NCBI GenBank assembly: GCA_008369845.1
Contig: MRSU01010452.1
Coordinates: 62,001-94,907, forward strand
From: Trichomonas gallinae
Lineage: Eukaryota
Direction: 5' to 3'
DNA length: 32,907 bases
Below are positions 1-22,560 of the stretch, piece after piece. The position numbers and the translations under genes are program-made. A model generated the notes under the pieces. It ran no database searches. It saw only the letters and a list, made by a program, of their open reading frames with translations, and had not been told where the DNA came from. How positions within the stretch are numbered: position 1 is the first letter of the stretch; each line of letters opens with the position of its first letter.

Positions 1-522
1 CTTTATTAATTTATACTCACGTTCATTTTTACTTCATTGGGTTCATCATATTCTTAGAAACGCATTCATTTTGCTTTAATTGGGTTCATTTTATATTTTT
101 AATGATATTCATTATTTATCAATGAAATGAGTCCTCTTAGTATTGCAATCGAACAGCATAACCTTGATATTGTTACTTCCTTAGTTGAACACGGCGCTAA
201 TGTCAACATTGTTTTAATTTATTTTAATATTATCAAGTTCATACTTCATCTCATCACATTCATTATATTATCATAGCCAAATTCATTATTTCTATTTGGC
301 ATTCATTAATATTTAATTGCACAATTTATCAAAATATAACAAATGCCCGCTTTCAATTGCAATTGTTGAGAAATCTGCTGACATTGCTTCTTACTTGATT
401 AACCATGGCGCCGACGTAAACACAACAATCAGAGTCCACACAATTCATTTTATTCTTATAATGGAGTTTATCATTCATTCAATACGTTCTTCACTCTTTT
501 ATGAAGTTTTTTGTTTGTTTTT
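1..522 (+). repeat. Degenerate ~20-23-nt periodic spacers between the ankyrin blocks (approx. 1-120, 217-331, 443-522)
   Basis: RTTYAT-like cores start at 21, 41, 64, 84, 107; at 217, 237, 258, 281, 301, 324; and at 443, 466, 486, 506. Confidence 0.7.
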
Positions 523-636
523 GAGAAAAGCCTCTTCTCGCTCGCTAACGAAAACAGATTCGAAGATATCATTCCTGATCTTGTTGAACATGGCGCAAAT
601 CAAAACGGTGGACGCTCAAGCTGCCGCATATTCTAG
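121..636 (+). CDS. 3' end of an interrupted ankyrin-repeat protein gene with a C-terminal CaaX motif (three coding blocks, approx. 121-216, 332-442 and 520-636; 5' part outside the window)
   Basis: Frame +1 from 121 reads NEMSPLSIAIEQHNLDIVTSLVEHGANVN. Frame +2 from 335 reads YNKCPLSIAIVEKSADIASYLINHGADVN. Frame +1 from 523 reads EKSLFSLANENRFEDIIPDLVEHGANQNGGRSSCRIF-TAG (stop 634-636). Each block matches the ankyrin consensus. Exact junctions are inferred. Confidence 0.7.
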
Positions 637-2192: not shown

Positions 2193-2848
2193 TTTACTTT
2201 TCTAAACGAATTTTTCTTGGTCTGAAGTTTTTTGGTTGATATGGGCTTATTATGATGAGAAAACCAGATTTTATGAACCATTTCTCCTTTAAACTCATTT
2301 TTTAAAACATGATTTTTTTTTTCAAAGACAATGCAGTTGGGTATATGTGGGATAAATAGAAAAATTTAATAAAAATTAGATGACAATAGAAAAATTACAA
2401 TCAGATCAACTTTAGTCATTGATATTTCCAATTTTTCCCTATATTTATTATTTGATTATTTTTATCACAGAATTATATTTATATTCCGATACCAAAAACA
2501 ATCTTTCATCACAAAAAGAGGTGCGACGTTACAATCATATTAACTCTTACAAACGAAGCCTTTATAGAGTACAAAATGTTTTCAGGCTGCAATTGTGTGG
2601 CAAATATATGTGTCACTCCACAATACATCAACTCATTATCAATCTAGGCGCAATAAGATATTAAAATTTTAATTTGATTCTTTTTTATTCATTGAGAGTT
2701 AGCATATTATGTCATATAAAAGACATTGTTTAATATGTATTTTCTGTAGTTCAGATGCGATACATCAAATATGGATGTCTAAGAAAAATTTAATGCTCAT
2801 CTTGAATCATTAAAGATCAGTACGAGAAGATCCTCGACGAAACGAAAA

Positions 2849-2878
2849 ACACCTATATATATATATATATATAGGTGT
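2849..2878. repeat. Perfect 30-nt palindrome ACACC-(TA)10-GGTGT
   Basis: Read directly from the sequence. Confidence 0.9.
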
Positions 2879-3143
2879 CTAAATCATCTCAAATGCCTGT
2901 TTCACAAGTGTTGTATAAACTATAGTTTTGATACACTTCATATTGAATTCTCATCGCTGTTTGTGCTTTCCGTACTGCTTTTCACATGCGTAGTGTAGAA
3001 TTAATATTAGTGCACAAACCAATACAGAGCAAATAAATACCGATATCAATGCAAATTCATAGTTGAGGGCTCTGTTTCCAAAAAATAAAATGTAAATATA
3101 AAAAGCAAATGTTTAGTTTCAAAAAAATAAAAATCAAAAAAAT

Positions 3144-4931
3144 TTATTGGGCAAATGAGAGGTAGTCGCGGATATTCAAGTATGTTGGCTTCTGGTCTGA
3201 GGAGTATCTCCTGAATATAGTGATAGCCTCGTGCACGTTGATACTAAGGCCGACGGCCTCGAAGATCGCCTGCAGTGCCTTAACATCTATCTTGTTGTTT
3301 GTCGCGTACTTCTTGAACAAATCAGTTGGATCCTTTCCTGACCTCTTCTCTGCTGCCCTGAAGTCTGTAACAATTCTGTTGAGGTCTGCCTGCGGGAAGC
3401 TGTCTGGGTCAGCTTCCATGAACGAGAGCGCGTATTCTGTTGCCTCGTCGAGCTGGAACTTGCTGCAGTTGATCGTCAAGACCTTGCCGATCTCGAAGTC
3501 GCTCGCCTGGAAAGGCTTGCCTGTGTCTGGGTTCGTCATCTTCGTCCTGTTCAGCCACTTGCCGGCGACGATGCCAGAGTTCCTTGCCGGTGGCTCGAAG
3601 ACCTGGATAGTGTCATCGGCCATGAAGTATGTAAGAATGAAGCTCCTCGACGCGTCGACTGAGTTGCGTGTCACCATATGGCACTTGAACCTCAAGATGT
3701 CGTTCGAGTGCTTCAAGAGCTTGACCTGGTCCTTCGGGGCTGGCTTAGGATGCAATGAGAGGCATGAGCGCATTGTGTCCTCGTCGCTGCCGATGAGTGA
3801 TGGCGGCGGGACTTCGAATTTGACCTGCGTTGGCTTGTCTTCGACGGTTTCGTGCTCGACCGGCTGCATCTCTTCCTCTGAGTAGCCCATGTTCTCGATA
3901 TACCAGCGGCGTGTGTATGGGTCGCAGTCGAAGATGTGCATCGTGCGGCCGTGGATCTGAATGTCGTCGCCGATGTGGAGATCTGTTGGTCTGAAGTAGT
4001 TTTCTGCTGGAAGGAAGCGTGGATCGTTCTCGCTGAGAGAGAGAAGGCGCTTAGGGATCTGTCCACGCTTAACAAATGAAGGAACAGGATCTCTTCCATC
4101 ATTTTGATGACGGACTTCGAGAACTTCCATTGTATCATCGCTCAAGTAGTAGTGGATGACGAACTGACGGAGGTCACCGAATGGGCGGTCTCTGTTATCC
4201 CATGTTGCGTAGAATCTCAAAACATGGCCATCGTTGGCAAGGAATTGGCGAAGTTTGAGCATTTCTGGCTTCGGAACACCACGATTGCGATGTGTTTCGT
4301 TGTATTCGACGAGTGTGCGCTTTGTAATATATGGATCGTCTGGAATTGTTTCGTCTGTTCTTCCGTCGCGATTGAGTTTGTCTAAGAATTCGTGTGTGAA
4401 CTTGTCTGCCTCTTGAATGAAGTACGTACGGCCGTAGAGCGAGAATTCCTCACCGATATGGAAATCTCCTACGTTAACGTAGCTGTCATCATCCTTCTTA
4501 GCACGGTGGCGGCGAAGGAATGTGCCCTGCGGGATGCCACTGTTCTTAACGCGTGGTTCGACAATTTCGATTGTATCATCTTCAAGGAAGAAGAGAATCT
4601 TGACTTTACGTACGCGATATGTCTCTTGCTGGCTGCTAAAAACTGGCTCCTTGAAGTAGCCATAGAAACGTAAAACTTGAGATCCGAATGCAACCCAAGC
4701 TGGGACTGTTTCGCCCTCTTGGTTGTTATCGCCCATGACTTGATTGTAAATAGTTGTGCTTGAAATAGCCTCTTTTGGAGGAAGTTGACCTGGAAGTAAT
4801 GTTCCACCAATTCCTGGCGCGTTTTCGTGAATGGCCATGCCTCCGTTCTCAAAAACGAGGGCCTGGCTCTTGTGGAAGTGTGTCTGTGTTGGGTCAGGGA
4901 ATGTATGGCCTGGAAGAAGAGGAAGAGTCAT
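3144..4931 (-). CDS. EFHC1: EFHC1/Rib72 family axonemal microtubule inner protein (three DM10 domains plus a degenerate C-terminal EF-hand-like region)
   Basis: N-terminal LPLLPGHTFPDPTQTHFHKSQ and three DM10-type repeats (VLRFYGYF..FFLEDDTIEIVEP..NSGIPQG; VLRFYATW..YYLSDDTMEV; ILRFKC..YFMADDTIQVFEPPARNSGIVAG). EFHC1 versus EFHC2 not resolved. Confidence 0.93.
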   Translation of the reverse strand: MTLPLLPGHTFPDPTQTHFHKSQALVFENGGMAIHENAPGIGGTLLPGQLPPKEAISSTTIYNQVMGDNNQEGETVPAWVAFGSQVLRFYGYFKEPVFSSQQETYRVRKVKILFFLEDDTIEIVEPRVKNSGIPQGTFLRRHRAKKDDDSYVNVGDFHIGEEFSLYGRTYFIQEADKFTHEFLDKLNRDGRTDETIPDDPYITKRTLVEYNETHRNRGVPKPEMLKLRQFLANDGHVLRFYATWDNRDRPFGDLRQFVIHYYLSDDTMEVLEVRHQNDGRDPVPSFVKRGQIPKRLLSLSENDPRFLPAENYFRPTDLHIGDDIQIHGRTMHIFDCDPYTRRWYIENMGYSEEEMQPVEHETVEDKPTQVKFEVPPPSLIGSDEDTMRSCLSLHPKPAPKDQVKLLKHSNDILRFKCHMVTRNSVDASRSFILTYFMADDTIQVFEPPARNSGIVAGKWLNRTKMTNPDTGKPFQASDFEIGKVLTINCSKFQLDEATEYALSFMEADPDSFPQADLNRIVTDFRAAEKRSGKDPTDLFKKYATNNKIDVKALQAIFEAVGLSINVHEAITIFRRYSSDQKPTYLNIRDYLSFAQ

Positions 4932-5134
4932 GTTTAATTAATTTTTTTTAGTAACGTATTTATAACCTCCAGCAAAATTTTCGTTAGTTTTATTTTGGAG
5001 GCTTCCTTGACTATTTATAATCTATGTATAAGGTGCACTATCTAAAAAGTTGATATTTCACACCAAATTCATATTTTTTCATTATTCTCGTAGTATATTT
5101 ATAGAGAATTAATATTTGTTATATGACAAAAATG

Positions 5135-5306
5135 ATACTATACTAAGGTAATTTATATATATGATCTGCAAATACAAAAATACAATTTTCATAATTCTCA
5201 AAATATATTTACAATAAATGAACTATTGATATCCGATAAAAAGTGAAACTATACTATGGCAATTTATATATATGATCTTTATATACATAAAATGCAAATT
5301 TCAAAT
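5135..5306. repeat. Two degenerate direct copies of ~60 nt
   Basis: ACTATACTA.GG.AATTTATATATATGATCT...ATAC..AAAT.CAA.TTTCA occurs near 5137 and near 5248. Confidence 0.7.
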
Positions 5307-5732
5307 ACTGGTGCCGTGCTGAGCTGATTATTTAGTTCTCCAAAGAAGCATTCTTATTATAATATCGATCAATAGAAGCCATTTCATTTCTTCAGTCAGC
5401 ATAAATATTATGTCAAAAGTAGAAAAAAATCTAGATTTTGAAGGGTTGTCTTTACCATTTGCTATATTCTGAAATTGAGTCCCAAAAGTCAATACGACGG
5501 TTTTATTCAATTTGTTTTTTACGGGCGAGAAAGTACACGAAAAGTGTATGCAAACTATTATTATCATGCATATGATTATTTTTACTTTAAATTTTAGATG
5601 CATACAGACAAAACTAACCCCTGCGTAATTTTGTCAACCCCATCTTAATATAAATGCATCCGAAATTTTATGATACAGCTTCTTTATATTCTAGAAAATC
5701 GATTACTCACAAAATATCGCATTTTTCTAAAA

Positions 5733-6578
5733 ATGGACGATTTCGATGGATATAAATTTTCATGGATGGGATTCATTGATTATGCTGCATGCTTTCCATA
5801 CAAAGAACCTATATGGATAGCAGTAGGAGCATGTCTCTTTCTAGGCACCTTAGCATCAGTTATTCCTCAAATTATTACATTAATCATTCGAAGATCGAAT
5901 TTCGGATTAAGTCCTTTCATGGTTTTCATGAATAACTTCTCGAGTACACTGTTAATTACAAATATTATCGCGCTTCGTTCATCTCAATTTCGTGCTCTAG
6001 GTCAATACAGCTTTTGGAAAGCTCTTCCAACATTATTTACGTTCTTTAATAATTTTCTACTATGGTTTTTCTATATTCCCGTCGTCTGCCTGACAATGAT
6101 ATTCTTTGATGTAGAAAATCGAGAAAAACGAAATGAATCAGCAAGAAAACGCGAAAGAATTGAAATTATAGTACTAAATGCGATCTTAATTTCAACATTT
6201 ATTTTAACATATTTAATTTTCACAATTATTGGAGTCTACGATGGGTTTTCAGGTGAAATAAATTTCAAATACGGAAAAACAATAGGTATTATAAATGCCT
6301 GTATCAACGTTTTGATTTGGATGCCACAAATTATTACAACATGCAGGCTGAAAGATCCTGGATCTCTTTCCATCGTAATGCTCATCCTCCAGGCCCCAGG
6401 AGGCCTAATTAGCACAGCTTTCATGGCTTTCGGTCAAAAAGAAAATTGGACAACGTGGCTTCCTATCTTTTGTTCATGCTGCCAACAAATTCTGCTTCTA
6501 TCGATATGCATCTTTTATGAGTGCAGGAAGAGACACAGAAAACAAAACATAGACCTAAGCGATGTAAAATATACATAA
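5733..6578 (+). CDS. PQ-loop repeat multi-pass membrane transporter
   Basis: Two PQ motifs (SVIPQIITL..R.N.GLS; WMPQIITT..KDPGSLS) and about seven hydrophobic helices. Start placed at AAAATG 5733 (MDDFDG); the ATG at 5670 is in frame but less likely. Confidence 0.88.
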   Translation: MDDFDGYKFSWMGFIDYAACFPYKEPIWIAVGACLFLGTLASVIPQIITLIIRRSNFGLSPFMVFMNNFSSTLLITNIIALRSSQFRALGQYSFWKALPTLFTFFNNFLLWFFYIPVVCLTMIFFDVENREKRNESARKRERIEIIVLNAILISTFILTYLIFTIIGVYDGFSGEINFKYGKTIGIINACINVLIWMPQIITTCRLKDPGSLSIVMLILQAPGGLISTAFMAFGQKENWTTWLPIFCSCCQQILLLSICIFYECRKRHRKQNIDLSDVKYT

Positions 6579-6589
6579 CTTTTTTTGTT

Positions 6590-7466
6590 ATGCAAAATAT
6601 ATTGTGTAAAAGCTGTTTTTATGACCTCAATTTTCACCTTGATGTCATTGAAGACATTATTGATGCATAGATCAGGCTTTCCAATGATTTGCATAATCAA
6701 GGATTCAAGATTCTTAATTGTTTTATAAATTCCTAATTAATCTTGGATGATGTTGAAATTGTCATCGCTCAGCTTCTTGAATTGTTCAACCCTAACTGAT
6801 TTGTTAAGATCATCATAGAGTTGGAACTTAATCTACTGATTACACTTGAGAAGCATGCTTCTAAAGTTTTCCATGCTACAGAAAACGACGAAAAGTTCCT
6901 GGAGTGGACGAGTTTCACAAAATTTCAAAAATTCTTCCATTCGTTTCGCAAGCGAGTTTTTTGCCCTGCATCGATGATATAGTGCCCCAATAGGATAACT
7001 TCGATGTCAAATTCAAGAAGATTCTCCTCAATGAAGTTGGAAATTTAGACACAATGTGATATGAGAATAGACGTCATTTGAAAAACATAATCATTTGATA
7101 AATTTATATGCATCATCAAGATAAGCAAGTATTGCCTAGTATCTCTCTAATGGAAATAGGTATGTTGTAGTGAATCTTCTTCATCTTCTTTGAAAATTCG
7201 CTGATTTGATTCTTAAATGACTTAATGGGATTTATCACGAAATTATTATCATTTTTGATCCCTTGTTCTTTGTTGTATTCAGGAAAAGATTATTTTCTAT
7301 ATTCTATATACATATTGTCAATTGATTCATTTCCTAGTTCAATTATAAAGCCATCATGCAACTAAATATTCAAAACTTTGAGCTGGAAAAATTTCATCAT
7401 ATTCATTAATAAGAACATCTCTAGGATTGAAATCATAACAGCTGTAGTTAGATTTGACTGATTCAT
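6590..7466 (-). pseudogene. Decayed protein-coding gene of unknown family
   Basis: One frame reads MEEFLKFCETRPLQELF..KCNQ*IKFQLYDDLNK..IIQD*LGIYKTIKNLESLIMQIIGKPDL from 6940, with in-frame stops at 6835-6833 and 6739-6737. Further coding-like segments (SNFIEENLLEFDIEVILL; YDFNPRDVLINEYDEIFP) lie upstream with frameshifts. Confidence 0.55.
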
Positions 7467-7821
7467 AAAAATTACCAATAAGATGAACAATTTTTTTGGA
7501 AAATATCCGAAAATATATTCAAGACATATGAAATAGTAGTGAAATTGTTCGCGGAATAATTGATTAATTCGAATATTTTCAGATTTTAATTACTCATCGC
7601 ATTGATTATTTAGCAATGCAAGATATCATATGCGCAATAGCCTGAAGCTGTCTCGGTATTCTCAACTCGCTGATGTTTTTCAATTTGAGCTCATCATAAG
7701 CCTTCATTTAAAATTATGTCACTTTTATAGTGATCATCCTTTGAATAGTTTACAATTTAACCAAAATCGGTAGTCAAGATTTTTCAATTTTGTCACTTTT
7801 ATAGTTCACATTTTAGTAAAG

Positions 7822-7878
7822 CAATGTAAAATAAAAATGACAATGTAAAATAAAAATGACAATGTAAAATAAAAATAA
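7822..7878 (+). repeat. 19-nt tandem repeat x3 (CAATGTAAAATAAAAATGA)
   Basis: Units at 7822, 7841 and 7860; the last has one mismatch. Confidence 0.92.
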
Positions 7879-7897
7879 ACATCATTAACGCGACAAG

Positions 7898-8167
7898 TTG
7901 GAAGAATTAGATCGAGTCACTTATGCAGTGCTTGATCGTTTTATTGATAATGACATTGCGAAAGATTACGCTGTTGCCGCATTTTCAGAACAGGTTGCGA
8001 GGGAAAATGTAGATATGACTCCTCGCTCTTGTTGTTGTATCATTGTACTTTTTAGGATGTTTTTACCTGAGAATGAAGTAAATCCATATAGTTTCACTTT
8101 TCCAAAAACATCTTCGGCGAAGTTCGAAGGTTTTATCAAAATCAAACTCGAACATCCTGATGGATGA
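7898..8167 (+). pseudogene. Short coding-like frame without an initiating ATG (gene fragment or small protein)
   Basis: 89 codons of protein-like composition starting at TTG, with an in-frame TAA at 7886-7888. Confidence 0.35.
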
Positions 8168-8368
8168 TAGATACGAAATAGCAAAAGTTGTATTTTTGTA
8201 TTTATATGGAGTCTACTATTATAATGACAATATTTTAAATACACATGTCTTTAACGCTAAAATTCTTGTTAAATATTTAAAAGTTTAATGTAATTTCATT
8301 ATTTTTGCTTTCTTTTGGTGATATAGTGCATATTTATAAGATCAAAATTATTATTGCATTGATTTCAC

Positions 8369-11300
8369 ATGTTCAATCGGATTTTTCTTGCAAGAAGTGA
8401 AGACGTTTTTGTATGTTTAGATACAACATATGAGTTTTCTTCTTGCAAGAATGATACATATACAACAATTTCAACGATTGATGAGCTTTATCAGATTTCA
8501 GAACAAAAATCTCAACATTTGAACATGATTGTCTATAATTATGACATAAACAAAGGTAATATAGACTTATCAAGACTGAACACCGATATTTTAAGAATAC
8601 GAGGCAATGATTCGAAATTACAATTCACAGATGTTAAACATTCAAGCATAAATCGTCTAGAATTACATTCATTAACAATAGATTGCGACAGTTGCACAAT
8701 TAAATTACCTCAAGGCGCAACAATTCGAAATGTTTCATTTTTATCTGATGTAGAAATTCAAGCTGACTATGATTTTGAAACCGATTATTACACAATGACA
8801 AGCATTAGAAATATCACTACAAGAACTATCGAAATTTTTGATGATTTTGAAATAATTCCTCAAAAACAATTAAAAAGGACAATTGTTGACATAAAATCAT
8901 CAGCATCTATACATGTCAGCAAATCCTCTATGAGGTCACAGATAAATAATACCGAATTCATAATTCAATCAATTAATAACAATTTCGAAGCTAATTTTCA
9001 TATAAGCAAACAAGCACAATTAATATATGATGTATATGGCCCAAACGCATACCTTGACATGCAAATAATCTCAAACTCATTGACAACGCAAGCAATAAAA
9101 GTTACCAAACATGCAACTTGTAAATTCGCTGAAAACTCACTGAAATTATCATCCATGCTCGATGTAGACGATGGAACTGTTATATTAGAATCACCTCGTT
9201 ATGGATCTAGGATTTATTTTGAAAGTTCTGTAAATGCCACACTTATCAACAGCAAAACAGATATTTATGTTCTTCAATTTATTAACACAAATGTTTTATT
9301 TAACTGTCCGAAAGATTTTGTTATTTCTCCACATATTACAAATTTCCACCAAAATGCAACTATATCCTCGCTAGAAGGATTGATGTTTCACACGTCTGAA
9401 GCCAATTTTAATGGAAAAAATATAAAAATATGCGAAAATATTGATTTCAAAGTTGGCACGAATATCAAATCATTTCAATCTAATCCAGTTTTATACAACA
9501 TAAAGACAATGCCTTACACGACATTTTCTCTATTATTAGATTTCGAGACTAATGACACTGCATTTCATTTTAAGAAGCCAATAGAAATATATCCGTGGGA
9601 TATAACAATGAAATATTTTGAAGATAGACTTCCCTCCGATGATATAATCAACAATAACATAAACAAGTCGTTCTTCGCTTTATGTGCGCCAAATAATATC
9701 TGCCAAGACCACAAATTCACTATTAACAGCGATAAAAATGGTCTGCAGTTTTCTGGCCTTTGCCAAATAGTTGATGATGAGTATTGCATTGGTGGATCTT
9801 ATTCACAAAACCAGAAATTAGTTGATTTAAGTATCTGTTACGGCTCGAATGAATCACTATGTCCGAAAAACAGCTATTCGTACTTTTTCACAGATTTAAA
9901 TTCATCAAAAATCGTAAATTATTTCACCGAAGCAACAAAGAATTTTACTATTTATTTGTTAGAAAAACTCAAGACAAATATGTACTTCATTAACAGTGGC
10001 TCAATACCAATCAATTTCAATGTTTATTCATGCACAAATAGTAATATAGAATTATTACTAAACGAATACACGCAAGATATACAAAAGTTTGAAAAAATAT
10101 ATCTTCAAAATATCAAGCTAACCATCAGACTCAATCATAATAAAGAGAATTATTCATTCACTGATGTTATATTACGACAAGGAGCTTCGATTGGCTTTGA
10201 TCACAGTGCTCATCCTGTGATTGTTAACTTTACCAAACTTAAATATTTTGACTGCGATTTTCAGTCATACTTGAAGCAAAATACTTTCAATGATTTAGTT
10301 TTGAGATGCCAATTATCTTCACCACATCCATATGTGTTTAAAGTTGAGTTGAAATCCCTTAAAATCAATCAAAGCTTTATATCATTAGACAAGATAGAAA
10401 AAACAGAATTTTATTACATTAATAGAATGGATCATCAGACTTTAAGCTTTTCTGTAGCTCTAGGTACAATGGAATCGCCTAGAATTAACTTTATTGGAAA
10501 TTATTCTATAGTGAAACTAGAATTTGATGATTCATTCGAGAATTATGCTGCTGTGAATCTATTTCATTTCAACAATTTTCAAAGAATCGATTTATGCTCA
10601 AAATCAACGAACATTCCTGCAGCTTTTATCAACATCAAAAGAATTTCGTTTGTTAACATTTTAAACGAAGCCCACTTGAATTCTATATATATCAGCGATA
10701 ACATATACTTAAATGCTAACAAGAATCCAACAAAAGAATCAAGAATATTTATCCATAATACAAAAATAGTAGGAATAGCAAACATTAAATCAGAAATCGA
10801 TCAAGTCACTCAAGTAGCATTCTGTAACATAGATACAAGCGAGCTTGATAAATTTATTGCAATTAACGTAAAAATGGAAGGATACATGGAACTGACGCCA
10901 AATGCTGCCGTTTCTTTCCATAAATGTGACATCACAGATCTTATCATTGGCACACAATCATTGGGCAGCAAAATTGCGTCTATTAATCTAAAGAGTGTCG
11001 AAGAAATGGAAACAAGGCCACCTGAAGCTATTTATATGTCAATAGATCCAACAAATATAGACAAAACCACAGAATGGGTTGTCGTCAACACTGTCACTAA
11101 AAGCCTCGCTGAAATGTGGGAAAAAGTAGTAATCATCGAACAAAAAGAGATTTTCATCGATGGACAAAAGTATTTCCCTAAAGTAGTCTCGACAACTGAT
11201 CTAGTGAAAGTAGTTTTAATTGCCGCAAGCAACATGAAAAACATGATTGGAATTATTGCTGGCAGCGTTGTTGGAGGAATTACAATTTTCTTAGGTGTTC

Positions 11301-11380
11301 TTCTTTTTATCATCAAATTCAAAGAGAGGAAATTGCTGAAAAATCACTTTGACACAAGTTTACTCTTTGAAGTTAATTAA
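8369..11380 (+). CDS. Large single-pass (type I) surface protein, 1003 aa
   Basis: Asn/Ile-rich beta-type ectodomain with spaced Cys (VCLD..C near the N-terminus, echoed by ICYG..LCP near residue 490). TM segment IGIIAGSVVGGITIFLGVLLFII, then a basic stretch and a short tail containing DTSLL. Confidence 0.85.
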   Translation: MFNRIFLARSEDVFVCLDTTYEFSSCKNDTYTTISTIDELYQISEQKSQHLNMIVYNYDINKGNIDLSRLNTDILRIRGNDSKLQFTDVKHSSINRLELHSLTIDCDSCTIKLPQGATIRNVSFLSDVEIQADYDFETDYYTMTSIRNITTRTIEIFDDFEIIPQKQLKRTIVDIKSSASIHVSKSSMRSQINNTEFIIQSINNNFEANFHISKQAQLIYDVYGPNAYLDMQIISNSLTTQAIKVTKHATCKFAENSLKLSSMLDVDDGTVILESPRYGSRIYFESSVNATLINSKTDIYVLQFINTNVLFNCPKDFVISPHITNFHQNATISSLEGLMFHTSEANFNGKNIKICENIDFKVGTNIKSFQSNPVLYNIKTMPYTTFSLLLDFETNDTAFHFKKPIEIYPWDITMKYFEDRLPSDDIINNNINKSFFALCAPNNICQDHKFTINSDKNGLQFSGLCQIVDDEYCIGGSYSQNQKLVDLSICYGSNESLCPKNSYSYFFTDLNSSKIVNYFTEATKNFTIYLLEKLKTNMYFINSGSIPINFNVYSCTNSNIELLLNEYTQDIQKFEKIYLQNIKLTIRLNHNKENYSFTDVILRQGASIGFDHSAHPVIVNFTKLKYFDCDFQSYLKQNTFNDLVLRCQLSSPHPYVFKVELKSLKINQSFISLDKIEKTEFYYINRMDHQTLSFSVALGTMESPRINFIGNYSIVKLEFDDSFENYAAVNLFHFNNFQRIDLCSKSTNIPAAFINIKRISFVNILNEAHLNSIYISDNIYLNANKNPTKESRIFIHNTKIVGIANIKSEIDQVTQVAFCNIDTSELDKFIAINVKMEGYMELTPNAAVSFHKCDITDLIIGTQSLGSKIASINLKSVEEMETRPPEAIYMSIDPTNIDKTTEWVVVNTVTKSLAEMWEKVVIIEQKEIFIDGQKYFPKVVSTTDLVKVVLIAASNMKNMIGIIAGSVVGGITIFLGVLLFIIKFKERKLLKNHFDTSLLFEVN

Positions 11381-11986
11381 TTATTTTTTATTTTTGTTAG
11401 TATAATAAATTGTAAGTAATATATGTATAATATAACACAATATCGTTATTTTTATCATATTACTGACAAAATACCATAGAGTACAAAAATTTGATTAATA
11501 TTTTCTTATCAATAGTGTTATATTATGCATGACACGAATTTTCTAATACAATACAAAATATTAACAATATTATTTCCATTAGATAGTTATCATACGCTTA
11601 AATATAATAAATTGTTCAAATAATATTCCTTATAATGACAATATATAACTGAGTTAAATAAGCATAAAAGAAATAAAATAATATTATTAGTTTATATAAC
11701 TAGAAATATTGATAATTTCATGAAAATCTAATTAGAAACCAAGATTAACAAAGAATGGCATAAAATGACAATTATATATACCAGTGATTGAAACAATGAG
11801 ATTTTATTATTGAAGAGATTGAATTTAATATTAAAATGTTATTTTTCTGTTTGCTTGATGAAAACAGTAATATAAGGGATAAAAAGGTAATAGATGAAGT
11901 ATAAACATAAAATGAAGCCGAGTGACAAAAAAATAGAAAATATTTGACAGTGTCAAAAAATTAAAAATTGACAAATAGAGATAAAA

Positions 11987-13186
11987 ATGACGACGAGTGT
12001 TTATTTAGATGGTGCGATTCTTTTGAAGGTTGCATCATCAATGTCAAGCATGCCTATTAAGTTCTACCCAGAAGAAATACACAATGATCCACAAATAGAA
12101 ACAATTTTAACAAATTCGCTCGCAAAATTTAATGACGAGATGATTTTTTGCTATACATTAGATCACAGGATTGCGTTTGCATACTCATTCTGCGTCAATG
12201 AAGAAAATTACTCTATTTCTCTAATAACGAAATTTAAATATCCGAAATTATTCATTACTTTTTTCGAAGAAATGTCATCACACTTTAAAGAATCAGAAAC
12301 ATCGATGTCTCCAGAGGATATGTTTGACATTATGATTAATACTTTTCCAAGTTGGTCAAACTTCCAATTTGAAAGACTTGATGAGATGGAATTTACTAGG
12401 AGATATGCACATCTTAAGACTCCTGACCAATATTTTGCAGATTTTGATCCCTATGACCATTTTACTAGTTTTGAATCTATAAATAAGGCTTGGAAAGCAT
12501 TATTCCTCGGAACCGGACTTCTTATTGTGGCAAATGGACCAGAACACCTTATTGATGCGGCTTTTTCAGCAATGTCAATCATTTCACCTTTTAATTTTGA
12601 AGGAGAGTTGTTTATTTCGGCGTGCGAATTCGACTGGAGACTTGATGATATGGCAAAATATGAACTCGTTGTTGTCCTTCCTGGCGCAATAAAGTATTTA
12701 AAACGAAAATTCAATGTAGCATTGAAACATTCGCCTGTTGGAGCTGATTTTAGCGGATCAAGGATGAGACTGCTAGAAAGGACAAAGAAAATGGATGATA
12801 TTCTCACATATTTAATGGATCGAGTTTTAAGCTTGAATCCATTCAACGACATGCTAGAAGGACCATATGTTAACGACTCACTTGAACAGGAAATGAATCC
12901 AAAACATCAAAAAACCGCTTTACAACCAGATCAATTTCGAATTGTCGAGCAAACGCTAACAATAAGAAAATGGCGCGAATCCATCCAGTTTAGGGATACT
13001 TTCCGCGACAATTTTCTGTCTTGCGTTCCAAAAAGAGTGATTGATGCTCTCAGCCTTGATCACGTTAAGAAACTACCTATTTTCTTAGACAAAATCGACG
13101 AAAGGTTCAAAGAGGACTCGCATATGCATGCAGTCGTTAAACAATATAGAAAAGAGATTCAATCAGTATTAGAAGCTTTTAATTAA
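11987..13186 (+). CDS. DENN-like (DENND6/FAM116-like) putative Rab GEF
   Basis: YSISLITKFKYPKLF and AWKALFLGTGLLIVANGP..AAFSAMSIISPFNFEG resemble the recalled DENND6 core (LWELVLLGEPLVV..ISPL.Y). The ORF is clear; the family call is tentative. Confidence 0.6.
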   Translation: MTTSVYLDGAILLKVASSMSSMPIKFYPEEIHNDPQIETILTNSLAKFNDEMIFCYTLDHRIAFAYSFCVNEENYSISLITKFKYPKLFITFFEEMSSHFKESETSMSPEDMFDIMINTFPSWSNFQFERLDEMEFTRRYAHLKTPDQYFADFDPYDHFTSFESINKAWKALFLGTGLLIVANGPEHLIDAAFSAMSIISPFNFEGELFISACEFDWRLDDMAKYELVVVLPGAIKYLKRKFNVALKHSPVGADFSGSRMRLLERTKKMDDILTYLMDRVLSLNPFNDMLEGPYVNDSLEQEMNPKHQKTALQPDQFRIVEQTLTIRKWRESIQFRDTFRDNFLSCVPKRVIDALSLDHVKKLPIFLDKIDERFKEDSHMHAVVKQYRKEIQSVLEAFN

Positions 13187-13253
13187 TATGTTCTTATTTA
13201 AAAAATTAGTTGTAAGTAATAATAAATATTAGTTTGTGTTTTTAAATGCATTT

Positions 13254-13898
13254 TTATTGATCCCATGTGCCTTCAACAATTTCCCAGCTTGGACTGATTT
13301 CTTCTGGCTCCAAACGATTGATGCCATCCTGGCTGATAGTAACAAATTCGACCTTTCCGTTGGCGATTGTAGTTCTAGCGTTAACAGCTCTAAAGACTTC
13401 TGTGATACCTTTCTTAACATCTTCGAAGCTTCCATTAGCAACTTCGGAGACCTGAAGACCCTGCAAATACTTACCCATGCCTGTTCCGAGATAATCTGTT
13501 TCCCAGGAGGCACCATATGGATCTGTGCAAGCTAAGAACTTACTACCGTCTGGATTAAGGCCAGCAACAACAACTCTGCAGCTGAATGGTTGCATTTTAG
13601 AGCGGCGCTGATACATTAAGCGTTTTATGTAAGTATGAACTTCTGATGGTGTTAAAAATTCGCCATTATGCTTGCATTGTTCTTGAAGAATAATATTCTT
13701 GATGATATCTATTAATTGCTGAAAGTCTGCAAACTCGCCTGTTGCTCCGATAATGATTTTTGGCGCAACTTCGACGAAGTGAGAGACATTGCTATATCTA
13801 AACATGGAGCCATATGTGATGGACATGTCTGAGGCAAGGAGAATGCCGCCGTCGTACTTCGAGGCGACAATAGCTCCGCTTGATGTGATTACTTGCAT
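13254..13898 (-). CDS. PSMB4: 20S proteasome subunit beta type 7 (PSMB4/Pre4)
   Basis: IVASKYDGGILLASD..YGSM.RY, GATGEFADFQ, MYQRRSKMQP and a terminal W-x-I motif. No catalytic N-terminal Thr. Confidence 0.93.
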   Translation of the reverse strand: MQVITSSGAIVASKYDGGILLASDMSITYGSMFRYSNVSHFVEVAPKIIIGATGEFADFQQLIDIIKNIILQEQCKHNGEFLTPSEVHTYIKRLMYQRRSKMQPFSCRVVVAGLNPDGSKFLACTDPYGASWETDYLGTGMGKYLQGLQVSEVANGSFEDVKKGITEVFRAVNARTTIANGKVEFVTISQDGINRLEPEEISPSWEIVEGTWDQ

Positions 13899-13940
13899 TT
13901 AGTTATAATTCTTCAAACAGACCTTCTCAATTTATTTTTT

Positions 13941-14720
13941 TGGCCTATTAGACCAACTATCAAAATTGGGCTGTTTTTGGCCTCTTTATTATGTGTATTA
14001 ATCATTTATTTCATCAAAATGCCATGAAGTCATATGATAGAATTTTTTTTTGATAAATTATTTAGTGTGATCATTTTCTAGTTGTAAAATAGCTTGATTT
14101 TCAATAATACTGATATTCTTTTGTTGTACATATGTTTTTCCACATGATCTATTTTTTGATTCGATATCATGCCTAATAGATCAATTAATTATCAAAATTG
14201 TGCTATTTTTGGCTACTTTATTGGGTGTATTCACCATTTATTTCATCAAAATGTCAATTGATAGAATTATTTTTTGATTATTCGCTAATTGAAACTATTT
14301 TCTAGTTGATACATAGTCTAGTTCTCAGTAACACTGATATTCTTTTGTTGTACTTATGTTTTTCCATATGATCTATTTTTTGATTCGATTTACTTTTACT
14401 AGTTCATTTTCTAGTTATTAAATTGCAAGTAATAGTTTATCATGCATATATTTGCTTTGCCAAACGAAAGCACAAATTATATATGAAATGTATGTTGAAT
14501 TGATTGTTATCATACTTCTCTAATTGTAAAATAACTCAATTTTCAGTGCTTCTTATAAATTTTTGCGTTGTATATGTTATTCCATATAATCTATTTTTCT
14601 TTTGATATTATTTAGGTCTAATAAATCAACTATCAAAATATGTGTAGTTTTTGGACTATTTATGTGTATTCATCATTTATTTTATTAAAAAACAATGAAG
14701 TAATTTGATAAAATTAATTT
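13941..14720. repeat. Degenerate ~230-nt tandem duplication (about 3-3.5 copies) in a divergent intergenic region
   Basis: YTATCAAAAT..G...TTTTTGG...TGTATT.A.CATTTATTT recurs near 13957, 14189 and 14630. CTGATATTCTTTTGTTGTAC.TATGTTTTTCCA.ATGATCTATTTTTTGATTCGAT recurs near 14110 and 14334, with a weaker copy near 14560. Confidence 0.85.
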
Positions 14721-14945
14721 TAATCATTTTGTTCATTAATATCATTTTGTAATTGTAAAATGACATGTGATAGTTGTTTACTATACATATACTTGCTTTG
14801 CAAAGTACATGATACAATATTAATTGAATCTCATGCATAAGAAGTTTTTTACGTGACAAAATATTAATTTTACGTGACAAAAATAAATGAAAGGTTTACA
14901 AATTTTGATGCATCATCTAATTAAAATAATTTATTGGGCCGAAAA

Positions 14946-16514
14946 ATGTCTGTTTATCCAGAATATGGCTTTCCAACTCTGATACTACCTCCAAAGACAC
15001 ATAACAAGAAGATCCTTCCACGTCTTGACTGCGAAGGACTCGATGACATCCCATTTGAAACAGTTATTCTCCCTCAGACAAATTTTGTTTCCATAGAAAC
15101 AATTTTTGATGAAGAAGACCTACTCGAACTTGAAGATGAAATCAAATACAATTTATTGCCAATTGGAAACAAATCATGTTCCTGGCTAGAGGTTCCTATC
15201 ATCGAATTTCATGAAATTTCAATTCTTGAACAAAATCAATCAATTGACCTTGCATTACTGGAATATGAGACATTTAAGACGCATGAGTACATTGGTAGCC
15301 ATCTTAGTTTACTGAAATCAAAGAAATTACAAGCTTTTCTAGATATCCCAATTGATTTTCAATATCTCGTAAATGATGATCATCCATTGAAACAAGATTC
15401 AGACAAGATGCTCAATATCTATGTATTTGATGATACGCCTCCAAATATTTCTCAAAATCGATCAAATATTTTGCTTAAGAACATTGAAACAAAGAACAGC
15501 AAGTATAATGCAACAAAAAAGAATACAACGAATTCATTATCACAAAAAGATGAGTTAGTATTAGCAAAACCAAAAATTACATTCTATAACTCGGTTGAGG
15601 ACGTCAAAAAAGACGATCAGAAGTATGCTACGACAGCAGAGACAGTTAATCAATATGATGATATTAAAATTTTATTATCAAAGGGTATTTCATCAAAAGA
15701 AGTTACTGTTAAGAGGAAAAATACAAATATGGAGGCATCCAAAGAACCAAAATTGACTCAAAAACGCAATGATGAATTCACTAATCAAATTGAAGCCCAA
15801 TCACAATCAAAATCATCTTTATTTCCAGAACCACAAGGAAAAGAGCAAGATTTTGATATTCAAGAATCGCAACCAGAAAAAAATCCTGAAATTATTCAAC
15901 AAGATACTAAAATATCTGATTTGACAGCACCATGCATTGTCTGTGATAAATCATTTGAACATGATGAAGTTTTCCTAGATATTTTCAAAGATTGTCGAAT
16001 ATTATTTAGATCTATCAATGATCATCAAATTGAGCTCTCCCCCAAAGAATGTGTCATATTCAGAGACATATCAGTCAAAACAGTATCAAACAGTTTAAGT
16101 GTTTTTGACAAGATTTATATATTTGCTGTTGGCAACTGCAAAGATGCAATGTCTTATGCAACCGTCCCAAGATTGTTTTTAAGACAAGTTCAAAATGAAA
16201 GGGATGCCTTTATGATCATCAGATCTATGGCAAAACCACTTGAAGTTACAAATGAAGGAGAGACTCTCTTTGAATACTGTTTGTCGTTATTTCCGTGTGT
16301 TCCAAGGACAGTTGCATTGGACTGGCTGCAGAAAGGCAATCCAATATCAGATCCAAACTGCATCTCAAAGTTCGATGTTTGTTCATACATGTTCCAGATC
16401 GTCCTCGATTCCAAGATATACTTGCAATCAGGCGAAAAAGCTAAAAATCCATCTGTAAAGAGAATAGAAGCAAATGTCGCCAAGAAGATGCGCAGAAAAA
16501 AGACAATCAAATGA
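14946..16514 (+). CDS. Protein with a C-terminal XPF/ERCC4-like plus HhH-like region; SHOC1/Zip2-like candidate
   Basis: First ATG at 14946 (AAAAATG), low-complexity middle, and C-terminal IELSPKECVIF and ETLFEYCLSLFPCVPRTVALDWLQKG resembling recalled SHOC1 motifs. The ORF is secure; the family call is tentative. Confidence 0.5.
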   Translation: MSVYPEYGFPTLILPPKTHNKKILPRLDCEGLDDIPFETVILPQTNFVSIETIFDEEDLLELEDEIKYNLLPIGNKSCSWLEVPIIEFHEISILEQNQSIDLALLEYETFKTHEYIGSHLSLLKSKKLQAFLDIPIDFQYLVNDDHPLKQDSDKMLNIYVFDDTPPNISQNRSNILLKNIETKNSKYNATKKNTTNSLSQKDELVLAKPKITFYNSVEDVKKDDQKYATTAETVNQYDDIKILLSKGISSKEVTVKRKNTNMEASKEPKLTQKRNDEFTNQIEAQSQSKSSLFPEPQGKEQDFDIQESQPEKNPEIIQQDTKISDLTAPCIVCDKSFEHDEVFLDIFKDCRILFRSINDHQIELSPKECVIFRDISVKTVSNSLSVFDKIYIFAVGNCKDAMSYATVPRLFLRQVQNERDAFMIIRSMAKPLEVTNEGETLFEYCLSLFPCVPRTVALDWLQKGNPISDPNCISKFDVCSYMFQIVLDSKIYLQSGEKAKNPSVKRIEANVAKKMRRKKTIK

Positions 16515-16688
16515 TTCTATAAAACCTCTTGAAAGCATCAATGCACAAGCCAATAATTTGGCACATATCAGTATTAACTCATAAACAAAAAATATATGAA
16601 TTGATTTTCTTGGAATCCAATAGTTTCATACTTATATATAAATGCCTATCTAATAAAATCTATCTTTTACTAAAACTTGTTGACAAAT

Positions 16689-17411
16689 TTAATTGTAAGA
16701 TGAAAAAATACAATTATTAATTTTGAGATTCTTAGCAACATATGTGGCGTTATTGAGATGTTCATCGGAGTCAATCTTATTCAATATAGGAATGAATCGG
16801 CATTTCACATTTTTCATTTGGCCATTTTCGCTTTCAAGTGTATATGCAATATCTTTGTCATCGATGATCTCTTCTTCAGTTTTATGAAGCACTTCCATGG
16901 CTGTTGGCGCTCTATGACAAACATCAATCAATCTTTTTCCAAAACAATCCATTCCAGCTACTCCAATCACTAAAGTGCTTCGGGTGTGAAGAACTGGTTC
17001 ATGGCTTTGCGGGAATTTGAGCGGAAGCTGTCTCGATCCATCGGCCTCAATCACTAAATAGTCGCAAACAGAATCCAGCAAGTCAAAAACTGCTGGATCT
17101 GGTGGACCCATCTTGTTCGGACCAATCCTTGATCCAACTATAACTAATGAACCGTTTAATAAATTCTTGATCTCTTCGATGTCTTTTCCTTCATAAACTG
17201 GTTGCTTTGGATACATCATCGCAGTGGTTGTGCATAGGATGACTTTCTTATTGAGTTTTAGTAACTCATTCGATATTTCGTAAACAGTATGTGTTTTTCC
17301 GCCTCCTCCAACTACCGAAATGACCTCATGAGGACCCAGGTTCAATAGAGGGACAAGTTCAGGTGATGTTGATATTTCTTGTGTTTGATGGTTGAAAAAC
17401 CAAAATCTCAT
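16689..17411 (-). CDS. yqeC: Selenium-cofactor (selenium-dependent molybdenum hydroxylase) accessory protein YqeC
   Basis: VISVVGGGGKT, VILCTTT.M..P, DYLVIEADGSRQLPLKFPQSHEPV, VIGVAGMDCFGK and ILNKID form the characteristic YqeC motif series. First ATG at 17411. Confidence 0.9.
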   Translation of the reverse strand: MRFWFFNHQTQEISTSPELVPLLNLGPHEVISVVGGGGKTHTVYEISNELLKLNKKVILCTTTAMMYPKQPVYEGKDIEEIKNLLNGSLVIVGSRIGPNKMGPPDPAVFDLLDSVCDYLVIEADGSRQLPLKFPQSHEPVLHTRSTLVIGVAGMDCFGKRLIDVCHRAPTAMEVLHKTEEEIIDDKDIAYTLESENGQMKNVKCRFIPILNKIDSDEHLNNATYVAKNLKINNCIFSSYN

Positions 17412-17483
17412 CGTTTTCAATCTGCTTTTTTACGAAAATTTTGCCACAATCAAAAATATAACCTTATTCATTCAAAAATTAAT

Positions 17484-17618
17484 TTTACGTGGCAAAATTT
17501 ACTATTTACATGATATAAATCTTTTTTTACATGCCAAAAATCATATTTACGTGGCATTTTATTTATTTACATGACATAATAAATTTTTACAGGACAAAAT
17601 AAATATTTACGTGGCAAA
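17484..17618 (+). promoter_or_regulatory. Array of seven TTTACRTGNCA-like motifs at 20-21-nt spacing upstream of yqeC
   Basis: Copies start at 17484, 17505, 17526, 17546, 17566, 17586 and 17606. The regulatory role is inferred. Confidence 0.65.
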
Positions 17619-18210
17619 ATTAAAAATTCAGAGGAAAAATGATCGCTGTTGGCATTTCTTATCTATGGTAATGCATAACCGATGTCAACCTCTTTTATGT
17701 CTTATAGAGCATTAACAACTGTACCATTATAATGCTGTTCTCCAACAATTGGTTGTGTTTTTCTAAACTTAATGTGAATTTTATATATATATATGAGGTA
17801 TCTGAAACTGAAAATCAAATATTAGGAAGTCTACATATAAGGGCAGCACGCAGTATAATATACATAATCATAATTTTATTTTTCATATTTCATCAAATTT
17901 CATATCTATTTTGTGATCAAAACAACATCCTAGATAAAATATACTGGTTATAAATAGGTCAAATGCATAGAAATAGAATATACTCATTGTTAATTTTGAT
18001 TTTGAATTTAATATTTGTTTCTTTTTAACATTATTTGTATTGAAACTTTTCATCTGATCAATTGTTATGATTAAATATTTAGTTAATGTAATTCCTTCGT
18101 GTTTGATAATTATATTTTATTTTATTATTTTTTATTAGAAGCTATTCGAACAAATTGAGGATATAACTATGTCAATAATCATATAAAAAACTGATTCCAA
18201 TCATTTTCTT

Positions 18211-19629: not shown

Positions 19630-20110
19630 ATTGTTTTTTATATTTTTAAATTAATTTTTCTTATTATTGTTATTGTCATCAGCAAATTATGTACAGAGAT
19701 TACAACAACAAATATCAAGCTTAAGATGCATATTATACATTTCTCAACTATTTTCTCCCTTTTCATTTTATGTATTTATTTGGAATATATAAGATTTTTC
19801 ATTATTTTTGTTGTTTCATTTAATAGCATGATGGTTGTGACATTGTCGAATATAAGATTGAATATAAAATTGCATTCAATATATCATAATTTTTCTCAAA
19901 AATTTTGATTGAACATCTTTAATTAATGCTGCAATTGTTTATCATAATAATTTTTGATTAGAGAACAATTTTGAGATCGGTGTATGGTGATTGATTTGTT
20001 GTTGATTTATGATGATTGATTTGTTGTGAGAACGAAAAATGATATGATTAATTTAAAATCACAAATTTAATCAAAAAAATAATAAAAAAGTAAAAAAATC
20101 TATTATCTAC

Positions 20111-22036: not shown

Positions 22037-22156
22037 AAAACGTATTTTTTGTCAGTTTTCTTTTTCTTTTTTCGCTATTTATTCGATTTTCATATCATAT
22101 ACATCATAACATTCACTTTTTGTAATATGATTATAACAAAATCCTCATTATTTGAA

Positions 22157-22560
22157 TGAAATTTATTTAAATTTGATTTTTTTAATTCATATTATGATTC
22201 TATTAATTATATATTTTACATTTTATTATATAATGATCTCAAAATTCTCTTTTTTTGAATAAAATTTTTAATTTTTGTGTTTTTAATTCATATTATGATT
22301 GTATTGATAATATCTATCACTTTTTACAATATAGAAATCTTAAAATTCTGTTTTTTTTTTTTTTTGATGAAATTTATTTAATTTTTGTGTTTTTAATTCA
22401 TATTCTTGTTCTGGTTATTATATATTTTACATTTTGTAATTTAATAACCTCAAGAATTCCATACTTTGAGTGAAAATCACACAAATATTTTATTTTAAAT
22501 TCATATTATGATTCTATTTATAATATATTGCTTTTTACAATATAATTGCAACAAAATTTT
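22157..22560. repeat. Degenerate ~105-110-nt AT-rich tandem repeat x4
   Basis: AATTCATATT(ATGATT) cores near 22184, 22285, 22395 and 22498, each followed by TTTTACA and AA(A/G)A(A)TT. Confidence 0.75.

What the first reader, a model, noticed from the sequence alone, without database searches (positions are those of the whole stretch)
1..636. Ankyrin gene split into single repeats by periodic spacers lacking normal intron signals: candidate non-canonical intron or recoding system
Seen: three clean ankyrin repeats in frames +1, +2 and +1, each interrupted at the same structural position (after GAxVN, before the next TPL-equivalent motif). The last ends in an intact CaaX box (CRIF-TAG). Removing about 115 nt (approx. 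217-331) restores an exact 33-aa repeat period. This spacer has no AG near its 3' end (nearest at 275-276 and 369-370). No spacer contains the ACTAAC..CAG branch/3' motif of known trichomonad introns. Spacer 2 admits an in-frame GT(434)..AG(525), but with non-consensus context. Inference: intact coding blocks with identical insertion position argue against random decay and suggest removal or skipping by non-canonical splicing, DNA rearrangement or ribosomal bypass. I know of no description of this but cannot check the literature.
Basis: partly seen in the sequence, partly recalled or inferred. Interest (0 to 1): 0.88.

Follow-up and report, generated by a model that had tools for sequence, protein, structure and literature searches.

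The report
Tiny 17-base introns lacking normal ends
An ankyrin-repeat gene of a trichomonad protist is interrupted by 15 pieces of 17-18 bases that nearly all lack the usual intron end signals, yet a public sequence set that is probably RNA has each piece cut out exactly and the one- and two-codon exons between them joined in frame, which likely reveals an undescribed kind of splicing that may vary the protein's binding loops.

Summary
The spacers are real, but they are not single blocks. A contig from run X2 (probably RNA) bridges both and carries 21 and 11 extra letters at the joints. Those letters parse, uniquely up to 1-2 base shifts, as 3- and 6-base exons inside the spacers. Across window 15-636, 15 segments are removed (14 of 17 nt, one of 18) and 13 one- or two-codon microexons are kept. 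In the motif register all junctions fall between codons and the frame is open to the CaaX stop. All segments start RTTYWT (7 GT, 8 AT); only 1 of 15 ends in AG. An independent DNA contig (X1) keeps the spacers without indels, shares X2's exonic variants, and shows 6 synonymous to 3 non-synonymous changes. Known Trichomonas introns are GT-AG, 23 nt or longer, one per transcript (PMC12316389). Ten literature searches found no such class. Best reading: spliceosomal removal with a 3' end set by distance; the machinery is untested. Limits: one locus, one RNA contig, no matched DNA, no alternative isoform seen.

The parts
1..14 (+). Probable tail of a 16th 17-nt intron that starts 3 nt before the window; alternative: 1-8 exon and 9-14 absent from RNA
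   Evidence: Fits profile positions 4-17 (score 10.4 vs mean 9.8), but X2's loose end also repeats letters 1-8; unresolved
15..20 (+). Microexon, 2 codons (T,H)
   Evidence: X2 loose-end letters
21..37 (+). 17-nt intron, GT..AT
38..40 (+). Microexon, 1 codon (W)
41..57 (+). 17-nt intron, GT..AG (the only canonical pair)
58..63 (+). Microexon, 2 codons (K,R); synonymous variant at 63 in X1
64..80 (+). 17-nt intron, AT..AT
81..83 (+). Microexon, 1 codon (W)
84..100 (+). 17-nt intron, GT..TT
101..106 (+). Microexon, 2 codons (N,D)
107..123 (+). 17-nt intron, AT..AT
124..216 (+). Exon: ankyrin repeat core A (31 codons)
   Evidence: Pfam Ank E 2e-05; covered by X2 contig
217..233 (+). 17-nt intron, AT..AT
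   Evidence: joint 216->341
234..236 (+). Microexon, 1 codon (Q)
237..254 (+). 18-nt intron, GT..AT (retaining it would keep the frame)
255..257 (+). Microexon, 1 codon (H)
258..274 (+). 17-nt intron, AT..AT
275..280 (+). Microexon, 2 codons (S,Q)
281..297 (+). 17-nt intron, AT..TT
298..300 (+). Microexon, 1 codon (G)
301..317 (+). 17-nt intron, AT..AT
318..323 (+). Microexon, 2 codons (C,T)
324..340 (+). 17-nt intron, AT..AC
341..442 (+). Exon: ankyrin repeat core B (34 codons)
   Evidence: Pfam ankyrin hits; X2 piece 341-443
443..459 (+). 17-nt intron, AT..AT
   Evidence: joint 443->523
460..465 (+). Microexon, 2 codons (N,G); X2 carries X1's synonymous letter at 462
466..482 (+). 17-nt intron, GT..AA
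483..485 (+). Microexon, 1 codon (Y)
486..502 (+). 17-nt intron, GT..AT
503..505 (+). Microexon, 1 codon (E)
506..522 (+). 17-nt intron, GT..TT
523..636 (+). Last exon: degenerate ankyrin repeat C, CaaX-type end (622-633) and TAG stop (634-636)
   Evidence: no Pfam hit at E<=0.01

Best explanation
Each spacer is a chain of 17-base segments and one- or two-codon exons, and a probable RNA contig has every segment removed exactly, likely by the trichomonad spliceosome, which would recognise the RTTYWT start and cut at a fixed distance instead of at an AG. Shown: positions, lengths and end letters of the 15 segments; their absence from the X2 contig and presence in two DNA assemblies; the open frame; constraint between strains. 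Inferred: (1) removal happens on RNA (about 0.88); (2) the spliceosome does it, using a relative of the type-B 5' motif with +1 relaxed to A or G, the conserved A at -2 as a possible branch or docking base, and a 17-nt ruler; (3) the product is a prenylated, membrane-anchored ankyrin protein with inter-repeat loops 4-6 residues longer than usual; (4) the codon-sized, phase-0 layout exists so that skipping of microexons can vary those binding loops without frameshift (about 0.4; no skipped form was seen).
For: X2 record 7 (1,404 nt, depth 75) joins 216->341 and 443->523 with 21 and 11 letters between. With gaps of 12-25 nt allowed, the only exact parses are 17/18/17/17/17/17 and 17/17/17/17, up to 1-nt shifts. 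Shuffled inserts or spacers parse in 0 of 2000 (joint 1) and 0-4 of 2000 (joint 2). The last 22 of 30 loose-end letters before 122 give five more 17-nt gaps. All 13 microexons are 3 or 6 nt (chance about 6e-7) and all junctions are phase 0 in the motif register. Joint 2 parses exactly only with X1's letter at 462. X2 shares 7 listed exonic variants with X1, and its 3' loose end matches X1's flank at 11 of 12 letters against 3 of 12 for the window; X1's DNA contig carries the spacers. Window vs X1: 6 synonymous, 3 non-synonymous, pN/pS 0.13, p 0.004; introns 8 changes in 256 nt and no indel, 3' flank 13 in 109 nt and 3 indels. For the spliceosome: all 7 GT-starting segments match the T. vaginalis type-B 5' motif GTWYWD and all 15 match with A allowed at +1; one is GT..AG; branch-to-3' spacing is strict in T. 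vaginalis (PMC6679479); 11 of 15 end pairs are pairs listed as U12-type or spliceable by the U12 spliceosome; 15-17-nt spliceosomal introns exist in Stentor and Mikrocytos.
Against: One locus and one contig from one run, whose RNA status is the tool's guess. No raw reads, no matched DNA of that isolate, no lariat or protein evidence. 14 of 15 segments lack AG, 8 of 15 lack GT, and none has the fused branch/3' motif that all 63 validated T. vaginalis introns have. An A two bases from the end leaves no room for normal 3' docking (Stentor's branch A is at 10 of 15), and 3 of 15 lack that A. U12 components appear absent in T. vaginalis. Only the all-included isoform was seen, so nothing shows variation. 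No second example was found in metagenome, viral or prokaryote contigs. The change counts use the 30 listed of X1's 35 differences in 1-772.
Confidence: 0.55

Rival explanations
1. The same RNA-level removal, but by a non-spliceosomal route: a protein endonuclease and ligase that binds RTTYWT and measures 17 nt, possibly coupled to the ribosome, which would explain why every junction lies between codons.
For: No conserved 3' dinucleotide (AT 9, TT 3, AG, AC, AA 1 each) and a near-fixed length; 15 of 15 phase 0; each 17-nt retention shifts the frame.
Against: No stem, bulge-helix-bulge or terminal repeat: 10 of 15 segments with flanks fold to 0 kcal/mol, the rest no lower than -2.1; no Rfam match in 1-1100. 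The 5' motif resembles the type-B splice site. Phase 0 with 3n exons is also expected from selection, as in Tuber nank genes; the three clusters give only three independent phases (p 0.04).
Confidence: 0.28
2. DNA-level difference: the X2 organism carries an intron-free allele or retrocopy, or excises the segments from DNA, and the window's copy is a separate interrupted form.
For: T. vaginalis has one intron-less paralog of an intron gene.
Against: X2 matches X1 at 7 listed exonic sites, at 462 and in the 3' flank, and X1's contig has the spacers; no joined contig appears in X1. The interrupted copies are under purifying selection with intron lengths fixed, which needs exact removal. A retrocopy would itself require prior splicing.
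Confidence: 0.1
3. Library or assembly artefact (reverse-transcriptase jumps or a chimeric contig).
For: Reverse transcriptase can skip AT-rich stretches (general knowledge); only contigs, not reads, could be laid.
Against: 15 skips of one length, starting at one motif, with 0-2 nt of boundary ambiguity and no hairpin, that restore a frame; contig depth 75.
Confidence: 0.03
4. Pseudogene with AT-rich insertions, or read through by ribosomal bypass of whole spacers.
For: Unspliced DNA has 14, 11 and 5 stops in the three frames; stop read-through and split genes are reported in Trichomonas.
Against: The segments are missing from the X2 contig itself, and the exons and intron lengths are constrained.
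Confidence: 0.04

Closest known systems
Codon-sized microexon arrays of Tuber melanosporum nank (NACHT-ankyrin) genes (Iotti et al. 2012; seen only second-hand in passages of PMC4986451 and PMC13449251; the paper is not held)
   Same: Codon-sized exons in ankyrin-repeat genes; a layout that allows residue-by-residue variation.
   Different: There, extensive alternative splicing is reported; here only the all-included form was seen. Here the host is an intron-poor trichomonad and the introns are 17 nt without AG. The ends of the Tuber introns were not in the passages I saw; I recall them as ordinary.
Type B short spliceosomal introns of Trichomonas vaginalis and T. stableri (PMC12316389; abstract, first parts of Results and Discussion, passages)
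   Same: 5' motif GTWYWD (7 of 15 exactly, 15 of 15 with A at +1), T-rich body, narrow length range.
   Different: Type B are 23-26 nt, GT-AG, end in the fused TCTAAC..AACAG motif, occur once per transcript and in all phases. These are 17-18 nt, lack that motif, come 4-6 in a row and are all phase 0.
Tiny spliceosomal introns of Stentor (15-16 nt; PMC9505925, passages) and Mikrocytos (16-17 nt; PMC10245619, passages)
   Same: Length at the lower limit, and a very narrow size range.
   Different: Stentor's are mostly GU-AG with branch A at 10-11; here 1 of 15 is GT-AG and the conserved A is second from last. Neither is described, in what I saw, as chains around codon exons.
U12-type introns with non-canonical ends (PMC1557818, passages)
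   Same: R-T start and tolerant 3' end: GT-AG, AT-AC, AT-AN and GT-AT cover 11 of the 15 pairs here.
   Different: The U12 5' and branch motifs (recalled) are absent; GT-TT, AT-TT and GT-AA are not in that paper's table; U12 genes appear absent from T. vaginalis.
Transposon-derived non-canonical introns of euglenids, Fritillaria and Amoebophrya (PMC11282704, passages)
   Same: Exact removal without GT-AG.
   Different: Those have terminal inverted repeats, target-site duplications or pairing ends, and the euglenid ones run from dozens to thousands of bases; these are 17 nt and unstructured.

Membership tests
Trichomonad type B spliceosomal intron | 5' GT within GTWYWD | tested here: not met
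   7 of 15 match; 8 start AT
Trichomonad type B spliceosomal intron | Fused branch and 3' motif ending in AG | tested here: not met
   0 of 15 have the motif; 1 of 15 ends in AG under any equivalent register
Trichomonad type B spliceosomal intron | Length 23-26 nt, one per transcript | tested here: not met
   17-18 nt, 15 in one transcript
Trichomonad type B spliceosomal intron | Removed by the U2 spliceosome through a lariat | not testable with these tools
   no raw reads, no genome for snRNA search
Tiny spliceosomal introns (Stentor, Mikrocytos) | Uniform length of 15-17 nt | tested here: met
   14 of 15 are 17 nt, one is 18
Tiny spliceosomal introns (Stentor, Mikrocytos) | GU-AG ends with internal branch A (as stated for Stentor) | tested here: not met
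   1 of 15 GT-AG; A at position 10 in 6 of 14, at 16 in 11 of 14
U12-type intron | R-T start with tolerated 3' pairs | tested here: inconclusive
   11 of 15 pairs are listed U12 pairs, 4 are not
U12-type intron | Extended U12 5' motif and branch motif (recalled) | tested here: not met
   position 3 is T in 14 of 14, not A; no room for a U12 branch box
Transposon-derived non-canonical intron (euglenid, Fritillaria, Amoebophrya) | Terminal inverted repeats, paired ends, target-site duplication | tested here: not met
   fold energies 0 to -2.1 kcal/mol; boundary ambiguity 0-2 nt
Protein-spliced intron (tRNA/BHB or IRE1 type) | Conserved stem-loop or bulge-helix-bulge at the cut sites | tested here: not met
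   no stable local fold; no Rfam hit at E<=1 in 1-1100
Tuber nank-type codon microexon array | Codon-sized exons in an ankyrin region | tested here: met
   13 exons of 3 or 6 nt between ankyrin cores
Tuber nank-type codon microexon array | Alternative splicing of the microexons | tested here: inconclusive
   one contig, all included; contigs drop rare forms
Tuber nank-type codon microexon array | NACHT domain upstream (NLR architecture) | not testable with these tools
   about 1,040 nt of the X2 contig lie 5' of position 122 and only 30 letters are shown; the window starts inside the gene

The most novel reading that the evidence does not exclude
Trichomonads run a second, hidden RNA-processing system, not the ordinary spliceosomal reaction, that excises 17-base units by a 5' motif and a ruler and assembles the binding loops of ankyrin proteins codon by codon. 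Used across the expanded ankyrin family with optional skipping (13 microexons here allow 8,192 in-frame forms), it would be a somatic receptor-diversification system that standard mapping discards as small deletions.
Probability: 0.25. Interest if true: 0.97.

Novelty: new variant of a known kind. Interest (0 to 1): 0.9.

Why it matters
The terminal AG is close to universal, and trichomonads are held to be intron-poor with strictly motif-bound, single introns. Exact removal of fifteen 17-18-nt segments with no fixed 3' dinucleotide would mean either a spliceosome that places the 3' cut by distance alone at the lower size limit, or a new excision enzyme. Both are directly testable with a minigene. 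The published T. vaginalis pipeline discards junctions without the known motifs, and STAR's default treats gaps under 21 nt as deletions (recalled), so such introns would have been missed. Some annotated split genes or pseudogenes (923 frameshift-split genes in T. vaginalis) and unsupported intron calls (7,715 in T. foetus) could be re-examined; that link is a lead, not a result.

Tried and rejected
No whole genome is held, so no genome-wide scan. No listed holder is on record as RNA; X2 is a guess. I checked it as the tool asks: no X2 contig lies on the intergenic bins 669-1002 and 2339-3006 or on several others that X1 covers, which fits RNA but is not proof. In 5001-25000 no 17-nt removal appears among the rows shown for X2 (12 gap rows shown, 42 hidden; 15 joints shown, 22 hidden). 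With gaps of 8-40 nt the parse is no longer unique (1,100 and 96 parses) and the joint-2 null rises to 70 and 28 of 2000; the loose-end parse had no null. Homolog searches with 317-646 and 511-633 found nothing. The representative search returned generic ankyrin proteins, and I saw no read-through of such clusters among the 150 listed; that script's output was cut. An ankyrin-anchored pattern gave 0 in prokaryote and viral contigs. These collections hold few trichomonads, so the blanks say little. No structure was predicted for the spliced protein. Rfam and tRNA scans were empty. Rejected: one-block removal with a 33-residue period, GT434..AG525 as the intron, trans-splicing or untemplated insertion as the source of the joint letters (all come from the spacers), structure-guided excision.

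Full report
Setting. The window is from a trichomonad: its proteasome beta subunit is 78% identical to that of Trichomonas vaginalis, the neighbouring ORFs are long and uninterrupted, and the best DNA holder is labelled bird metagenome. No whole genome is held. The gene starts before position 1.

Observation. Three ankyrin-type blocks lie in frames +1, +2, +1 and end in CRIF-TAG at 622-636. Blocks 1 and 2 hit Pfam ankyrin models; block 3 does not at E<=0.01 but shares a 36-nt repeat with them. The motif TTCAT occurs 13 times in 1-500 on the + strand and at most 5 times in any other 500-nt bin. The known trichomonad branch/3' motif is absent from the spacers. An independent DNA contig, X1 record 1, runs through 1-772 with the spacers intact, so they are not an assembly error.

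The decisive result. Run X2, which the tool guesses to be RNA, has one contig (1,404 nt, depth 75) that joins 216 to 341 and 443 to 523, with 21 and 11 letters between, and has a loose end before 122. X2's other contigs follow genes: 1082-2174 on the ORF at 1113-2201 and 22909-24110 on the ORF at 22911-24104. I asked whether the extra letters come from inside the spacers. Allowing gaps of 12-25 nt, the only exact parses remove 17, 18, 17, 17, 17, 17 nt from spacer 1 and 17, 17, 17, 17 nt from spacer 2, up to 1-nt shifts. The last 22 of the 30 loose-end letters give five more 17-nt gaps in 21-123. Shuffled inserts or spacers parse in 0 of 2000 trials for joint 1 at all three gap ranges, and in 0-4 of 2000 for joint 2 at 16-19 and 12-25; at 8-40 the joint-2 null rises to 70 and 28 of 2000 and the parse is no longer unique. 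Joint 2 has no exact parse with the window's letters and parses once X1's letter at 462 is used, which ties the X2 letters to a microexon in spacer-bearing DNA.

Anatomy. In the register where every removed segment starts RTTYWT there are 15 segments (14 of 17 nt, one of 18), 13 microexons of 3 or 6 nt and three large exons. All junctions are between codons and the frame is open for 121 residues to the stop. Starts: 8 AT, 7 GT. Ends: AT 9, TT 3, AG 1, AC 1, AA 1; A at -2 in 12 of 15 and T at -4 in 13 of 15. No equivalent register gives a second GT-AG. Segments are 57% T and 4% G; microexons are 14% T. They do not fold (10 of 15 at 0 kcal/mol, lowest -2.1). The 5' hexamer alone is not enough: 16 RTTYWT sites in 6,149 nt of gap-free, X2-covered coding sequence are not removed, and 0 of 16 reach the profile score that 12 of 14 introns reach in leave-one-out. 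Chains of 4 or more units occur only in 1-522 of the window; 0.04 chain starts are expected in shuffles. After splicing the repeat period is 37 and 39 residues, i.e. linkers of 11 and 13; among the stored ankyrin hits 623 of 818 linkers of 4-15 residues are 7 long, 12 are 11 and 5 are 13.

Selection. Using the 30 listed of X1's 35 differences in 1-772: exons have 6 synonymous and 3 non-synonymous changes (pN/pS 0.13, p 0.004), and both microexon changes are synonymous. Introns have 8 changes in 256 nt and no indel, the 3' flank 13 in 109 nt and 3 indels (p 0.002 and 0.027); 1 of the 8 intron changes falls in positions 1-7. X2 shares 7 listed exonic variants with X1 and its 3' loose end matches X1's flank at 11 of 12 letters, the window at 3 of 12. 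So the spliced contig comes from a close relative of a spacer-bearing allele.

Mechanism. Shown: what is removed and where. Inferred: removal on RNA (about 0.88). I favour the spliceosome (0.55 overall). All GT-starting segments match the T. vaginalis type-B 5' motif and the rest differ only at +1; one segment is GT-AG; T. vaginalis needs exact branch-to-3' spacing (PMC6679479, passages); spliceosomes remove 15-17-nt introns and U12-type ones tolerate AT-AT and GT-AT. The segments look like type-B introns that stop just after a branch-like A, without the AG tail. Against this, such geometry leaves no room for normal 3' docking, three segments end in TT, and U12 genes appear absent in T. vaginalis. 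A motif-and-ruler nuclease with a ligase, perhaps ribosome-coupled, is the main rival (0.28). An intron-free allele in X2 (0.10), an artefact (0.03) and pseudogene or bypass (0.04) are weaker. Purpose: the clusters sit in the loop between ankyrin repeats, a binding surface (established knowledge), and 3n phase-0 exons can be skipped in frame (8,192 combinations). Only the all-included form was seen, and contigs drop rare forms, so diversification is a hypothesis (about 0.4). The CaaX end predicts prenylation.

Breadth. Not established by my calls. Pattern scans returned satellites or nothing, and protein searches found no spliced homolog. Unchecked notes of this scan describe a second ankyrin gene in the same genome with arrays of about 21-nt units; one calls the one-codon exons untested, the other calls the gene truncated. 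I could not see that sequence. Other notes describe codon-exon arrays with ordinary introns in fungi and Pelomyxa, and length-set or AT-ending introns in other protists. They are leads, not support.

Known systems and literature. The layout resembles Tuber nank genes (second-hand passages; original not held). The segments fail defining tests for trichomonad type B, Stentor-type, U12-type, transposon-derived and structure-guided introns (membership table). All 63 validated T. vaginalis introns are GT-AG, at least 23 nt and single, and junctions without the known motifs were filtered out (PMC12316389: abstract, first parts of Results and Discussion, passages). Passages were also read in PMC10711314 (Giardia candidates, including non-canonical ones of 32 nt and longer in the rows shown), PMC11282704, PMC13735942, PMC8529796 and 10.64898/2026.08.31.748405 (abstract and passages). 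Ten full-text searches (listings of the top 2-30 hits each) showed no report of 17-nt non-GT-AG introns or microexon chains in parabasalids. The library lacks most subscription papers, and no supplements were opened; the junction tables of PMC12316389 could bear on this.

Verdict. Real, RNA-supported at one locus, and not matched to any described intron class. I rate it a new variant of splicing rather than a new category because the machinery is untested. Interest 0.9.

Noticed in passing
window 1-14: X2's loose end repeats window letters 1-8 and then jumps to 15. Either 1-14 is the tail of a 16th intron and the upstream exon ends in the same 8 letters, or six bases (9-14, themselves an RTTYAT) are absent from the RNA. 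X1 has no indel there.
   Followed up: partly
window 41-57: The only GT-AG segment is also the only one with a listed change in the 5' motif in X1 (position +6).
   Followed up: partly
window ~7300-8200 (pieces also near 17500 and 24170-24480): Multi-copy element: summed X1 depth 1,419-1,574 against about 25 elsewhere, with X2 contigs on it; probably a transposon-like repeat.
   Followed up: no
window 8363-11380 (+): 1,005-residue ORF with a hydrophobic stretch near its end and only a weak sub-threshold Pfam hit; X1 depth is 0.8-2.7 across it while neighbours are about 25, so it may be strain-variable or divergent.
   Followed up: no
window 3600-4716 (DM10/EFHC-type gene): Both X1 and X2 have two contig forms, one with 10-12 and one with 83-84 differences over about 800 nt: a close paralog or a second strain.
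   Followed up: no
window 16689-17429 (-) and 29593-31821 (-): YqeC-family gene and a GH3 glycosidase with raised GC (up to 52%); candidates for lateral transfer from bacteria (the transfer is my inference).
   Followed up: no
window 7209 (+), 10767 (-), 17627 (-): Three-unit RTTYWT chains; 3 starts against 0.68 expected in shuffles, no open-frame context checked.
   Followed up: no
window 32787-32907 (+): Start of a ribosomal protein S30-like ORF cut by the window end (name recalled from the sequence, no call).
   Followed up: no
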